The notes under the pieces are model-generated. The model was not told the DNA's origin, did no database searches, and saw only the letters and a program-made list of their open reading frames with translations. A stretch of 1,197 bases of DNA, taken from the sequence record OR846210.1. One strand, given 5' to 3'. The stretch's first letter is position 1; every line of letters begins with the position of its first letter. The position numbers and the translations under genes are program-made. Of the stretch, positions 1-1,197 are shown one piece after another. Source of the stretch: a phage.

Positions 1-181
1 CGATTAATCTATAATCCAGTTTTTTTCTGTTTTTTTGAACCATAGATATACATCTCATTTGCCAGACGCTACCAAAATAAAAAATTAAGACGGCGATTGT
101 TATTGGCCTGCATAAGTAATCGATATAATAAAAATTCATTACTGCGAATAATCTCATGTCGCCAGTATTTCCGTAATCCAT
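1..181 (-). CDS. speculative small hydrophobic protein, N-terminal part; frame continues beyond window start
   Basis: The minus-strand frame is stop-free from position 259 to position 2, where the window ends (86 codons), despite ~29% GC. First ATG at 181..179 gives MDYGNTGDMRLFAVMNFYYIDYLCRPITIAVLIFYFGSVWQMRCISMVQKNRKKLDYRLI..., with a transmembrane-like stretch followed by basic residues. The only Shine-Dalgarno-like element (AAGGA) is too close to the ATG (1-nt spacer). Y/F/I/N/K-rich composition is also what chance translation of AT-rich DNA gives. Confidence 0.2.
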   Translation of the reverse strand, partial: MDYGNTGDMRLFAVMNFYYIDYLCRPITIAVLIFYFGSVWQMRCISMVQKNRKKLDYRLI

Positions 182-402
182 TTCCTTTTTTAGATATGGA
201 AAATAATAAGCAATGTAAGAGTTTGATTTTTTCTTCCTCCAATGAAGAAAGCTAGATTGTTAAATAAATGTTATTATCGTGGGGGGTTCACGTATCAATT
301 GGTAAAAATACTATAAGATGGTTTTTTATAATACTTCATTTGCTATGCAAACTGAACATTTGATGCTAAAAAATAATAAAGGGTATTACTTTAATTCAAC
401 AC
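1..402. other. AT-rich (~29% GC) segment with phased A/T tracts; probable intergenic or horizontally acquired DNA
   Basis: Hand count gives 117 G+C in positions 1-400. Homopolymeric T7 runs at 20-26 and 30-36, A-rich tracts at 74-85 and 366-380, and several TATAAT-like hexamers. Composition changes abruptly at ~400-430, exactly at the 3' end of the coding block. Confidence 0.5.
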
Positions 403-423
403 CGCCGGGCTTTATACCCGGCG
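403..423 (-). terminator. candidate intrinsic terminator hairpin downstream of the 151-aa gene
   Basis: Perfect inverted repeat cgccggg (403-409) / cccggcg (417-423) with a 7-nt loop (ctttata), 7 nt beyond the TGA stop on the minus strand. The following minus-strand sequence is AU-rich (GUGUUGAAUUAAAGUAAUACCCUUUAUUAUUUUUU), but the U-run is displaced ~20 nt from the stem, so this is not a textbook terminator. Confidence 0.4.
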
Positions 424-429
424 AGAGAT

Positions 430-885
430 TCAACAATCGTATTGCCAGCTACTAACTAAGGCATAAAGGTGGCTGGGGGAGTAGCGCCAGCTATCGTTTA
501 GTCCGAGAAATTCAGCGCAAAACTCGCTGCAAAACAGTTTATCTTTGCGCTCCCGGTTATACAGCGCGATACCGAGCGCGCCCTGCCAGTCATAGCGTTT
601 GCCGTTATGTTTGCGGAAAAAGGCCTCCACTTCCGGCAACGTGGCCTTTAACGGTAGCTTATCCCACTTATCGTCCGGTAACGGTATTATCTTTCCCCGC
701 ACGCCGCGATCGCGAAACGATGCAGAGTAGCAGAGGTATTCATTACCGCCGTGCGCCACCGCCAGTTCACAGTGAGAGTAGATACCGCGCGTGACTTTGC
801 GCGTGAGCCAGTCGGCAAACCTGGCGATGCCGCGATACTCCGATCGCCCCTTATAGCAAGCGAGCCAGACGGTGGTTTGACTCAT
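430..885 (-). CDS. hypothetical Cys/His-rich protein, 151 aa; possible circularly permuted papain-fold (NlpC/P60-superfamily, YaeF/YiiX/LRAT-like) hydrolase
   Basis: Complete ORF from ATG (885..883) to TGA (432..430) with enterobacterial-type codon usage (ccg, ctg, gcg, cgc frequent). Start overlaps the upstream stop as ATGA. No N-terminal hydrophobic signal sequence; net positive charge by my count. Functional guess rests on His38 in YSHCELAVAHGG and Cys119 in FCSEFCAEF, which resemble the His-then-Cys order of permuted NlpC/P60 enzymes. This is motif recollection only. Confidence 0.75.
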   Translation of the reverse strand: MSQTTVWLACYKGRSEYRGIARFADWLTRKVTRGIYSHCELAVAHGGNEYLCYSASFRDRGVRGKIIPLPDDKWDKLPLKATLPEVEAFFRKHNGKRYDWQGALGIALYNRERKDKLFCSEFCAEFLGLNDSWRYSPSHLYALVSSWQYDC

Positions 886-1197
886 GGCTGCCAGCCTGAT
901 GAATAGTCGTAGTCGAGCACTTCCTGGATATCCCCCAGCGCTTCTACCGCCGCAATATGCCGCTGCGCGTTGGCAAACAGGCGCATATCGTGATCCATAG
1001 TGACGGTTTCAAACTGCGCGGCGATGTCGTTGGTCAGTTTAATCAAACCGTTATTTTTGGTCTGCCACATTAACCCTGCCGGAATCTGCTTTGCCTGACC
1101 CATTCTGGTGAGTGACATTTGCTGAATACGGCTGTTAGCATCGCTGTGGAAATGGTTGCCGTCGATAACGATATAATCGGTGGTAACGGTGTCGCGG
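882..1197 (-). CDS. hypothetical protein, 5'-truncated by the window edge (C-terminal ~105 codons visible); function unknown
   Basis: The track ORF 882..1118 (78 aa) starts at an ATG with no purine-rich Shine-Dalgarno in the preceding ~20 nt (minus-strand upstream reads gctaacagccgtattcagcaa). The same frame stays open to position 1196 with no stop, reading ...RDTVTTDYIVIDGNHFHSDANSRIQQ before MSLTRMGQ... Codons there are typical enterobacterial preferred codons (acc, gtt, atc, gac, ggc, aac, ttc, cac, agc, cgt, cag). The stop TGA (884..882) overlaps the next gene's ATG (885..883). Confidence 0.6.
   Translation of the reverse strand, partial: RDTVTTDYIVIDGNHFHSDANSRIQQMSLTRMGQAKQIPAGLMWQTKNNGLIKLTNDIAAQFETVTMDHDMRLFANAQRHIAAVEALGDIQEVLDYDYSSGWQP

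What the first reader, a model, noticed from the sequence alone, without database searches (positions are those of the whole stretch)
880..887. ATGA stop/start overlap indicating translational coupling of the two genes
The upstream gene ends ...GGC TGG CAG CCA TGA and the 151-aa gene starts at the ATG embedded in the same ATGA (882-885). The 151-aa gene has only a weak Shine-Dalgarno-like element (AGGCUGG). This arrangement usually means co-expression at fixed stoichiometry and functionally linked products, such as enzyme plus partner, toxin plus antitoxin, or two subunits.
Basis: seen in the sequence. Interest (0 to 1): 0.4.

Follow-up and report, generated by a model that had tools for sequence, protein, structure and literature searches.

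The report
Tail-fibre chaperone gene overlapping cysteine-enzyme gene
The four-base ATGA overlap is real but ordinary; it joins a phage tail-fibre assembly chaperone gene to a small, unstudied cysteine-enzyme gene, and the two sit side by side in prophages of many bacterial families, so they very probably work together.

Summary
Observation confirmed. On the minus strand the upstream gene ends GGC TGG CAG CCA TGA (896-882) and the 151-aa gene starts at the ATG inside it (885-883). The Shine-Dalgarno match is weak (-4.3 kcal/mol).

The upstream gene is a tail-fibre assembly chaperone (STM4199 orthologue: Tfa N-domain plus DUF4376). The 151-aa gene (STM4198 orthologue) is a circularly permuted NlpC/P60 (YiiX/YaeF-like) Cys-His enzyme. 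Databases call it "hypothetical" or, probably wrongly, "enoyl-CoA hydratase". No Pfam or NCBIfam model covers it.

They are the last two genes of the tail operon of a P2-like, tail-only element in Salmonella.

The pair is conserved in both directions:
- 64 of 68 diverged lineages of the enzyme have an upstream same-strand ORF, nearly all of tail-fibre-assembly type; 59 of these overlap or abut it.
- 32 of 34 chaperone lineages are followed by the enzyme.

The exact ATGA is kept in only 26 of 68. Both genes are under purifying selection.

A toxin-antitoxin reading is rejected. Translational coupling and fixed stoichiometry remain inferred. The enzyme's substrate is unknown: the fibre/chaperone complex or host envelope lipid.

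The overlap is routine. The conserved chaperone-enzyme module is a modest, testable lead.

The parts
882..1197 (-). 3' part (last 104 codons plus TGA stop at 884-882) of the upstream gene. It is a tail-fibre assembly chaperone, the orthologue of Salmonella STM4199 (233 aa: Tfa N-domain plus C-terminal DUF4376). The gene runs off the window's right edge.
   Evidence: Translation. Pfam DUF4376 scores 39.8 bits against a cut-off of 25 on the window fragment. The full-length SARB27 orthologue has DUF4376 at 117-225 (52.7 bits) and Caudo_TAP at 69-131 (29.7 bits against 22.1). PHROG 105 'tail fiber assembly' gives E=1e-43 on residues 2-132. By tblastn, residues 2-111 are up to 50% identical to lambdoid and P2-like Tfa and 33% identical to T4 gp38.
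882..885 (-). ATGA stop/start overlap: ATG of the 151-aa gene at 885-883, TGA of the chaperone gene at 884-882.
   Evidence: The same 4-nt overlap is annotated in S. Infantis SARB27, E. coli 23CRST029, and phages Pm86, AFS-2018a and vB_PstS-pAN.
891..897 (-). Weak Shine-Dalgarno-like AGGCUGG. Its GGC-UGG core is the pair of codons for the invariant Gly-Trp at the chaperone's C-terminus.
   Evidence: Duplex energy -4.3 kcal/mol, matched or beaten at 26% of coding positions. G230 and W231 are invariant in the partner alignment A4, with a conserved YDYSxGW motif.
430..885 (-). 151-aa gene (STM4198 orthologue): a circularly permuted NlpC/P60 (YiiX/YaeF-like) Cys-His enzyme. Predicted catalytic residues: His38 (codon 774-772), Tyr98 (594-592), Cys119 (531-529). 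Stop at 432-430.
404..422 (-). G+C-rich 7-bp hairpin (CGCCGGG/CCCGGCG) 8 nt after the stop of the 151-aa gene. It is a possible weak terminator or transcript-end structure at the end of the tail operon.
   Evidence: The 61-nt stretch folded (window 380-440) has minimum free energy -21.9 kcal/mol, z = -3.7 against shuffles. There is no clean U-run, and the consensus terminator scan did not call it.

Best explanation
The ATGA is the junction between the last two genes of a phage tail operon.

The upstream gene encodes a tail-fibre assembly chaperone. It combines the classical Tfa N-terminal domain with a C-terminal DUF4376 domain, and it lies directly after the tail-fibre gene. The downstream gene encodes a 151-aa cytoplasmic enzyme with the circularly permuted NlpC/P60 fold (YiiX/YaeF-like). 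Its active site would be His38, Cys119 and Tyr98, the chemistry of thiol acyl-enzyme hydrolases and acyltransferases.

Both genes are read from one late transcript. The downstream start has only a weak ribosome-binding site, formed by the chaperone's own invariant Gly-Trp codons. In this Salmonella element, ribosomes finishing the chaperone at TGA therefore most likely re-initiate at the overlapping ATG. The enzyme would then be made only when, and roughly in proportion as, the chaperone is made.

The two genes travel together as part of a fibre - chaperone - enzyme host-recognition cassette in Mu-like, P2-like and siphovirus prophages. I infer that the enzyme is an accessory of the fibre/chaperone system. 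It most probably acts on the fibre-chaperone complex, by trimming, releasing or acyl-modifying it. Less probably it acts on a host envelope lipid.

Shown: the gene identities, the fold, the conserved residues, the synteny in both directions, and purifying selection. Inferred: re-initiation coupling, stoichiometry, catalytic activity and substrate.
For: Junction and weak SD.

Partner identity:
- Pfam DUF4376 and Caudo_TAP.
- PHROG tail-fibre-assembly families.
- N-domain homology to lambdoid and P2 Tfa and to T4 gp38.
- DUF4376 proteins are experimentally required or assisting tail-fibre chaperones in Alteromonas V22 and A5 and in Campylobacter CJIE1 (PMC7289586, PMC10579305, PMC7882524).

Enzyme identity:
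- Profile hit to 3kw0 at E=9e-5.
- AF2 model pLDDT 84.
- The invariant SH, YD and CSE motifs correspond to Ser48-His49, Tyr127 and Cys154-Ser155 of BcPPNE (PMC3142127).

Operon context: tail fibre, then chaperone, then enzyme in Salmonella, E. coli, SuMu, AFS-2018a and Mcat7; in Pm86, vB_PstS-pAN and AP1 the chaperone-like ORF then enzyme order is the same, but the gene before it is not annotated as a fibre. No minus-strand promoter-like site lies in the 316 nt upstream. A hairpin follows the enzyme gene.

Conservation:
- 59 of 64 lineages with a partner have a junction between -32 and +14 nt.
- 122 of 125 loci, or 32 of 34 partner clusters, have the enzyme right after the chaperone.
- dN/dS is 0.06-0.10 for the enzyme and 0.04-0.15 for the partner.
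- The pair is retained in a tail-only element that has no capsid or integrase genes.
Against: - No experiment or computation here shows coupling. The junction RNA is not unusually structured (z=+1.6), so there is no sign of a start codon masked by structure. Many relatives have a stronger SD (median -6.6 kcal/mol) or non-ATGA junctions, and 5 of 64 have gaps of 27-234 nt.
- The enzyme is more conserved (mean p-distance 0.52) than the partner's C-terminal domain (0.77), and the two co-vary only weakly (r=0.25-0.39).
- 13 of 64 partners belong to other tail-fibre-assembly families rather than DUF4376. This argues against a tight one-to-one protein interface.
- The Alteromonas phages whose DUF4376 chaperones were studied experimentally do not appear among the organisms with a homologue of the enzyme, so the enzyme is not generally required for that chaperone class.
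- In E. coli 23CRST029 the fibre gene is a pseudogene while the pair is intact.
- A Ralstonia jumbo phage carries the enzyme with no partner.
- The third catalytic (polar) residue could not be placed (alignment).
Confidence: 0.6

Rival explanations
1. The 151-aa enzyme is a 'moron': a lysogenic-conversion or superinfection-exclusion function. It would act on host envelope lipids, LPS/LOS or lipoproteins rather than on the fibre. It rides next to the fibre/chaperone genes only because receptor-related exclusion genes are co-transferred with receptor-binding modules, as cor and llp are in T1/phi80-like and T5 phages (general knowledge).
For: - PHROGs places the family (phrog_1128) in the category 'moron, auxiliary metabolic gene and host takeover'.
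- Where members of the permuted NlpC/P60 group have a known or suggested activity, it concerns lipids. YiiX crystallised with a fatty acid (PMC3142127), LnsA N-acylates lipoproteins (PMC7387801), and the PLAAT/LRAT proteins and MARTX RID are acyltransferases.
- In Salmonella the gene lies at the element's edge, beside other surface-modifying cargo: gtrABC and a hexapeptide acetyltransferase.
- The pair stays intact where the fibre gene has decayed.
- The enzyme is more conserved than the variable fibre chaperone, as expected if its target is a conserved host molecule.
- An H. parasuis association study listed the gene among accessory genes linked to clinical isolates (PMC4532294).
Against: - No promoter of its own was detected, and the start overlaps the chaperone's stop, so the gene should be expressed late with the tail genes and not from the repressed prophage.
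- In several phages it is not at a genome end but inside the structural or lysis region.
- There is no signal peptide or membrane segment in the sequence (read directly from the sequence).
- Linkage to the chaperone is close to obligate in both directions, tighter than is usual for morons.
Confidence: 0.25
2. The overlap is plain genome compaction. The two genes are neighbours in a dense late operon, each is translated from its own initiation signal, and they have no specific functional relationship.
For: - ATGA overlaps are the commonest overlap class in compact phage operons (general knowledge). Other neighbouring tail genes in the same element also overlap or abut (coordinates).
- The junction geometry is not fixed in relatives: -4, -8, -11, 0 and +3, with larger gaps in 5 lineages.
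- Many relatives have a usable SD.
Against: The adjacency survives across Enterobacteriaceae, Pasteurellaceae, Neisseriaceae, Moraxellaceae, Pseudomonas and Acidovorax, and across myovirus and siphovirus backbones in which the surrounding genes differ. It holds from either gene as the starting point. Random neighbours in mosaic phage genomes do not stay together like this.
Confidence: 0.1
3. The pair is a type II toxin-antitoxin or other two-gene defence module, with the 151-aa protein as a papain-like toxin and the upstream protein as its antidote.
Against: - The upstream protein is a 233-aa tail-fibre assembly chaperone with Tfa and DUF4376 domains and no DNA-binding domain.
- The pair is embedded at the end of a tail operon directly after the fibre gene.
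- No PADLOC model matches either protein.
- No minus-strand promoter-like site was found upstream in the window.
Confidence: 0.02

Closest known systems
[quoted passage not shown]
   Different: It is much smaller (151 aa against 180-214). Identity is only 18-21%. No Pfam hit was listed up to E=1 for the window protein, and only 2 of 39 relatives reach E about 0.007. The position of BcPPNE's third catalytic residue, Glu64, is not conserved here. It lies in a conserved phage tail-fibre context, which is not described for YiiX or YaeF.
Tail-fibre assembly chaperones with DUF4376 (Alteromonas phage V22 gp27 and A5 gp9; Campylobacter CJIE1 protein downstream of the H-fibre) and classical Tfa (lambda Tfa, P2 G, Mu U, T4 gp38)
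   Same: The upstream gene has the DUF4376 domain and the Tfa N-domain. It lies immediately downstream of the tail-fibre gene, as these chaperones do.
   Different: The Alteromonas phages with studied DUF4376 chaperones do not appear among the organisms whose genomes hold a homologue of the 151-aa enzyme. The subfamily here, with a YDYSxGW C-terminus, is almost always followed by one.
Translationally coupled overlapping gene pairs (ATGA/termination-reinitiation, e.g. trpE-trpD and trpB-trpA of E. coli; general knowledge)
   Same: Same strand, stop codon overlapping the start codon, and a poor independent ribosome-binding site for the downstream gene.
   Different: Coupling is untested here. 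The exact geometry is conserved in only 26 of 68 lineages.
Lambda tail-tip protein gpK (MPN plus canonical NlpC/P60 domains; general knowledge)
   Same: It is an NlpC/P60-superfamily protein encoded among phage tail genes, and its substrate is likewise unsettled.
   Different: gpK has the canonical, non-permuted topology, is fused to an MPN domain, and belongs to the tail-tip complex rather than to the side-fibre/chaperone cassette. No sequence or fold match to it was seen here.

Membership tests
Translationally coupled overlapping gene pair | Same-strand genes whose stop and start codons overlap | tested here: met
   ATG at 885-883 and TGA at 884-882 on the minus strand.
Translationally coupled overlapping gene pair | The downstream gene lacks a strong ribosome-binding site of its own | tested here: met
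   The best anti-SD duplex is -4.3 kcal/mol and interrupted. 26% of coding positions in the window score as well or better.
Translationally coupled overlapping gene pair | No promoter between the genes, so a single transcript | tested here: inconclusive
   The consensus scan finds no minus-strand sigma-70-like site in 882-1197. The scan is crude, and late phage promoters (Mor/Ogr-type) are not covered.
Translationally coupled overlapping gene pair | Translation of the downstream gene depends on translation of the upstream gene | not testable with these tools
   This needs a reporter fusion with and without an upstream nonsense codon.
Permuted NlpC/P60 (YaeF/YiiX-like, Peptidase_C92) | Papain-like NlpC/P60 core fold | tested here: met
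Permuted NlpC/P60 (YaeF/YiiX-like, Peptidase_C92) | Circular permutation: catalytic His before catalytic Cys, with Cys at the N-terminus of a helix | tested here: met
   His38 is invariant. Cys119 is invariant in A1 and present in at least 90% of A3. Both align with His49 and Cys154 of 3kw0. The model has a helix at 119-126.
Permuted NlpC/P60 (YaeF/YiiX-like, Peptidase_C92) | Conserved signature Tyr and a polar third triad residue | tested here: inconclusive
   Tyr98 is invariant and lies 21 residues before the Cys (27 in BcPPNE), but its equivalence was not checked in 3D. The column aligned to Glu64 of BcPPNE is Ala/Ser here. The neighbouring Ser56, Asp59 and Glu40 are invariant candidates.
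Permuted NlpC/P60 (YaeF/YiiX-like, Peptidase_C92) | Match to Pfam PF05708 above its gathering score | tested here: not met
   No PF05708 hit up to E=1 for the window protein. Only 2 of 39 relatives hit, at E about 0.007. I therefore file it as a distinct, unmodelled family of the same superfamily and not as a Peptidase_C92 member.
Permuted NlpC/P60 (YaeF/YiiX-like, Peptidase_C92) | Thiol-dependent hydrolase or acyltransferase activity | not testable with these tools
   This needs biochemistry, for example activity-based probes and a C119A control.
Tail-fibre assembly chaperone (Tfa / DUF4376) | Pfam DUF4376 and Caudo_TAP above their gathering scores | tested here: met
   DUF4376 scores 39.8 bits (cut-off 25) on the window fragment. 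On the full-length orthologue DUF4376 scores 52.7 bits and Caudo_TAP 29.7 bits (cut-off 22.1).
Tail-fibre assembly chaperone (Tfa / DUF4376) | Encoded immediately downstream of the tail-fibre gene | tested here: met
   STM4200-type fibre (Phage_tail_fib, Phage_fiber_2, Collar), then STM4199, then STM4198 in SARB27. The same order occurs in SuMu, AFS-2018a and Mcat7.
Tail-fibre assembly chaperone (Tfa / DUF4376) | Required for folding or trimerisation of the cognate fibre | not testable with these tools
   Known only for homologues in other phages (PMC7289586, PMC7882524).
Type II toxin-antitoxin pair | A small autoregulated two-gene operon with an antitoxin that binds DNA or neutralises the toxin | tested here: not met
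   The upstream protein is a Tfa/DUF4376 chaperone. The pair is the 3' end of a tail operon. There are no PADLOC hits.
Enoyl-CoA hydratase / crotonase (the name given in PHROGs and GenBank) | Crotonase-fold (ECH) domain | tested here: not met
   No ECH family appears in the Pfam scan up to E=1. The fold is NlpC/P60. The name looks like a propagated misannotation.

The most novel reading that the evidence does not exclude
The 151-aa protein is a third, enzymatic component of a class of phage and tailocin tail-fibre assembly systems. It would be a trans-acting Cys-His enzyme that covalently processes the fibre or its DUF4376/Tfa chaperone cap, for instance by cleaving off or acylating it. Fibre maturation in thousands of prophages of Enterobacteriaceae, Pasteurellaceae, Neisseriaceae and Moraxellaceae would then depend on an enzyme-catalysed step that has not been described.
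Probability: 0.2. Interest if true: 0.7.

Novelty: new variant of a known kind. Interest (0 to 1): 0.35.

Why it matters
The overlap is textbook gene organisation and would not matter by itself. What it points to is more useful.

- A large family of small permuted NlpC/P60 enzymes has no Pfam or NCBIfam model: about 3,900 clusters at 50% identity at E<=0.001, and 1,655 at E<=1e-10. Annotations call it "hypothetical" or "enoyl-CoA hydratase".
- This family is tied almost obligately to tail-fibre chaperone genes across very different prophages.
- Tail-fibre and chaperone cassettes are what is swapped when phages, tailocins and pyocin-type particles are retargeted. An overlooked third gene in the cassette could explain failures of heterologous fibre expression.
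- The substrates of bacterial YiiX-like enzymes are poorly understood. A phage context with a clear phenotype (fibre function, adsorption) would give a handle on them.

Tried and rejected
- Rfam found no RNA family in the window up to E=0.1.
- NCBIfam and PADLOC gave no hits for either protein.
- The consensus promoter/terminator scan found nothing on the minus strand, so it is only weak support for a single transcript. The hairpin after the gene lacks a U-run.
- I tested whether RNA structure masks the start codon. The junction folds no better than shuffles (z=+1.6), so that mechanism is not supported.
- A mirror-tree test for co-evolution of enzyme and partner was significant but weak (r=0.25-0.39). 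It does not support a tight co-evolving interface.
- The SuMu virion proteomics paper was read to see whether gp51 is in particles. It does not mention gp50 or gp51, and its identifications were made by homology, so it is uninformative.
- Literature searches for STM4198-4201, DUF4376, YiiX/C92 and 'carnithine racemase' found no functional study of this protein or of the pair.
- The mixed partner alignment A4 was too diverse for a locus search and was split into A5 and A6.
- The idea that the two ORFs are one frameshifted gene was rejected. Each is conserved separately, and they are joined by many different junction types.
Full report
**1. The observation**

Both genes lie on the minus strand. 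The plus strand reads TCAT at 882-885. The minus strand from 899 to 882 reads TCA GGC TGG CAG CCA TGA, so the upstream reading frame ends ...Y-S-S-G-W-Q-P-stop. The ATG at 885-883 opens a 151-codon ORF, 430..885(-).

This ATG is the first start codon after the in-frame stop. The protein contains no other Met, and the next alternative start (a GTG) lies beyond the invariant His38, so the start assignment is secure.

The Shine-Dalgarno-like AGGCUGG at 897-891 pairs poorly with the 16S 3' end. The duplex is interrupted and scores -4.3 kcal/mol, and 26% of positions in the window's coding sequence do as well or better.

A lone ATGA overlap is the commonest kind of gene overlap in bacteria and phages (general knowledge) and is not remarkable in itself.

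**2. What the two genes are**

The window is 100% identical to a GenBank record labelled 'Salmonella phage S.Kent 1-2-1' (flagged UNVERIFIED_ORG). It is 97.6% identical to the S. Infantis SARB27 chromosome, where the genes correspond to STM4199 (233 aa) and STM4198 (151 aa) of strain LT2.

*The upstream protein.*
- The window fragment carries Pfam DUF4376 at 39.8 bits (cut-off 25).
- The full-length orthologue carries DUF4376 at residues 117-225 and Caudo_TAP at 69-131.
- Residues 2-132 match PHROG 105 'tail fiber assembly' at E=1e-43.
- By tblastn, residues 2-111 are up to 50% identical to the Tfa proteins of lambdoid and P2-like phages and 33% identical to T4 gp38.
- The gene sits directly after a tail-fibre gene with Phage_tail_fib, Phage_fiber_2 and Collar domains.
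- DUF4376 proteins encoded after fibre genes have been shown experimentally to be fibre chaperones in Alteromonas phages V22 and A5 and in a Campylobacter CJIE1 prophage (PMC7289586, PMC10579305, PMC7882524).

The upstream gene is therefore a tail-fibre assembly chaperone.

*The 151-aa protein.*
- It has no Pfam or NCBIfam match.
[quoted passage not shown] Nothing supports that name: there is no crotonase domain.
- An alignment of 31 homologues (A1) shows invariant Y36-S37-H38-C39-E40, S56, D59, G61-V62-R63, Y98-D99 and C119-S120-E121. His38, Glu40, Ser56, Trp74, Tyr98 and Asp99 stay invariant in a more diverse set.
- The profile hits the B. cereus 'cysteine peptidase' 3kw0 at E=9e-5, with the SH and CSEF motifs aligned.
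- An AlphaFold2 model (pLDDT 84, pTM 0.82) matches 3kw0 by Foldseek at probability 1.0.
- In Xu et al. 2011 (PMC3142127) the catalytic residues of 3kw0 are Cys154, His49, Glu64 and Tyr127. Here His38, Cys119 (at the start of helix 119-126) and Tyr98 correspond. The column of Glu64 is not conserved, so the third triad residue is unresolved.
- Only 2 of 39 relatives touch Pfam Peptidase_C92, at E about 0.007.

The family is therefore a distinct, unmodelled branch of the YiiX/YaeF-like group. It is large: 3,892 clusters at 50% identity at E<=0.001 and 1,655 at E<=1e-10. Among the 150 best hits, which are the only ones listed, nearly all are stand-alone proteins of 135-180 aa. The nearest viral structures in BFVD are uncharacterised phage proteins.

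**3. Context**

In Salmonella the pair ends a P2-like tail gene cluster. The order is tail fibre, I, J, W, an inserted gtrABC, V, D, X, U, tape measure, tube, sheath, then an SLT transglycosylase, a small membrane protein and a Mor-family activator. The cluster lies between yjbD and lysC, and no capsid, integrase or replication genes are annotated in it. It is a tail-only, tailocin-like element.

After the 151-aa gene comes a G+C-rich hairpin at 404-422 (z=-3.7), though without a U-run. A 316-bp spacer of about 30% G+C follows. No minus-strand promoter-like site lies in the 316 nt upstream of the ATG.

In 210 of 5,426 complete E. coli genomes the same pair occurs at about 76% nucleotide identity. 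In the one examined it lies next to yjbD, as in Salmonella, with the same 4-nt overlap. RefSeq names the two genes 'hypothetical protein' and 'DUF4376 domain-containing protein'.

**4. Is the pair conserved?**

*Annotated phages.* Mu-like SuMu, AFS-2018a and siphovirus Mcat7 show fibre, then a ~190-205-aa chaperone-like protein, then the enzyme. Pm86, Pseudomonas vB_PstS-pAN and Acidovorax AP1 show a ~150-200-aa chaperone-like protein followed by the enzyme, but the gene before it is not annotated as a fibre. Annotated 4-nt overlaps occur in Pm86, AFS-2018a and pAN. Only a Ralstonia jumbo phage has the enzyme alone.

*Starting from the enzyme.* I analysed 166 loci from IMG/VR and GTDB genomes.
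- The distance between the upstream stop and the enzyme's start is -4 in 83 loci.
- After clustering the enzyme at 70% identity (68 clusters), the distance is -4 in 26, -8 in 10, -11 in 7, another overlap in 7, and 0 to +14 in 9.
- It is 27-234 nt in 5 clusters. No partner is found in 4, two of them at contig ends.
- Of 64 partners, 32 match Pfam DUF4376 and 51 match a profile of the STM4199-type C-terminal domain.
- Seven of the 13 partners that do not match that profile were scanned against PHROGs. Six fall in other tail-fibre-assembly-type families (phrog_8258, phrog_2618), and the Pseudomonas phage pAN partner matches only an uncharacterised family.

*Starting from the partner.* Two partner alignments retrieved 128 viral loci. 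Of the 125 that are informative, 122 have the enzyme immediately downstream. That is 32 of 34 clusters at 70% identity.

*Selection.* Both genes are under purifying selection. dN/dS is 0.06-0.10 for the enzyme and 0.04-0.15 for the partner's C-terminal domain.

**5. How it most likely works**

*Shown.* The two genes are co-directional, overlap by ATGA, sit at the 3' end of a tail operon, and are inherited together.

*Inferred from the weak SD.* Ribosomes terminating at the chaperone's TGA re-initiate at the overlapping ATG, so the enzyme's synthesis is tied to the chaperone's. The SD-like GGC-UGG is simply the codons of the chaperone's invariant Gly230-Trp231, within a conserved YDYSxGW motif. 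Relatives with -8 or -11 junctions use GGAUGGAG from the same codons.

*Limits on the coupling inference.* The junction RNA is not unusually structured (z=+1.6). Relatives often have a stronger SD (median -6.6 kcal/mol). Coupling is therefore probably helpful rather than obligatory across the family.

*The enzyme's role.* I favour an accessory role in the fibre/chaperone system, acting on the fibre-chaperone complex. Three observations support this:
- the two-way synteny;
- the late-operon position;
- retention in a tail-only element.

*The main rival.* The enzyme could be lipid-directed and modify the host envelope, staying linked to the receptor-binding cassette as cor and llp are. Several observations favour this:
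- the lipid-related chemistry known or suggested for members of the permuted group: fatty acid bound in YiiX, LnsA, PLAAT and RID;
- the enzyme being more conserved than its partner, with weak co-variation;
- its survival beside a decayed fibre gene in one E. coli strain;
- the absence of the Alteromonas phages, whose DUF4376 chaperones were studied experimentally, from the organisms with a homologue.

A toxin-antitoxin reading is rejected.

**6. Comparison with what is known, and novelty**

The overlap is a standard case of a possibly coupled gene pair. The chaperone is a member of the Tfa/DUF4376 class.

The enzyme works like a YiiX/YaeF-type permuted NlpC/P60 protein, but it fails the Pfam membership test. 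It is best called a new family within that superfamily.

In the searchable literature I found no study of STM4198, STM4199 or their homologues as a pair, and no description of a cysteine enzyme linked to tail-fibre chaperones.

I therefore rate it as a new variant of a known kind. Interest is modest: the reported feature is routine, but it exposes a widespread, misannotated and experimentally tractable gene pair.

Noticed in passing
window 1-113 (-), compared with L001 7637-8113: The window's left end is the 5' part of the hexapeptide-repeat acetyltransferase gene that follows the pair in S. Infantis SARB27 (159 aa there). In the window's allele two Trp codons have become stops (TGG to TAG at window positions 70 and 10). 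The ORF therefore stops after 14 codons, and the gene looks like a pseudogene in this strain.
   Followed up: partly
window 114-429: A 316-bp spacer of only 28-34% G+C lies between the 151-aa gene and the acetyltransferase gene, against 52-61% in the two phage genes. No promoter, terminator or Rfam family was called in it. It may be a junction between horizontally acquired cargo and the tail cluster.
   Followed up: partly
L001 8429-17186 and L298 1-11483 (S. Infantis SARB27; STM4198-STM4219): The element that holds the pair, between yjbD and lysC, encodes a full P2-like contractile tail. It has sheath, tube, tape measure, baseplate and fibre genes, plus an SLT transglycosylase, a small membrane protein and a Mor-family activator. 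No capsid, integrase or replication genes are annotated, so it looks like a tailocin-like tail-only element. A gtrABC O-antigen glucosylation cassette is inserted between baseplate genes V and W.
   Followed up: partly
L297 (E. coli 23CRST029, NZ_AP045796.1 148272-163028): The same element sits beside yjbD in this E. coli genome, and the pair occurs in 210 of 5,426 complete E. coli genomes. Here the tail-fibre gene is annotated as two pseudogene fragments while the chaperone-enzyme pair is intact. The cargo beyond the pair differs: a slipin-family protein and a nucleotidyltransferase-domain protein replace the Salmonella acetyltransferase.
   Followed up: partly
OR850896.1 (L002), whole 6,035-bp record: The record deposited as 'Salmonella phage S.Kent 1-2-1' (UNVERIFIED_ORG, unannotated, low coverage) is 100% identical to the window. 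It corresponds to the chromosomal tail-only element and its flank, so it is probably host DNA and not a phage genome.
   Followed up: no
PHROG 1128; GenBank records NC_019455.1 gp51 and MH238467.1 ORF70: [quoted passage not shown] No crotonase domain is detectable and the fold is NlpC/P60, so the name appears to be a propagated misannotation. An H. parasuis association study listed a gene with this name among virulence-linked accessory genes (PMC4532294).
   Followed up: partly
L236 and L245 (both on IMGVR_UViG_2802429650_000001); also L248 and L269: One viral contig carries two copies of the DUF4376 chaperone about 7 kb apart. One is followed by the enzyme and the other is not. L248 (a close relative of L245) and L269 are the only other chaperone loci without the enzyme. 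This might reflect alternative fibre cassettes, but it was not examined.
   Followed up: no
L007 3495-3932 (Ralstonia jumbo phage FLC1-1B gp184): A homologue of the enzyme (34% identity) stands alone in a 290-kb jumbo phage, on the opposite strand from its upstream neighbours and with no tail-fibre or chaperone gene nearby. It is the clearest exception to the pairing.
   Followed up: no
BFVD hit A0A8S5PP64: An 821-aa 'cysteine peptidase' of an uncultured myovirus contains a domain that structurally matches the 151-aa protein (probability 1.0). This fusion into a large protein might reveal the partner or target domain.
   Followed up: no
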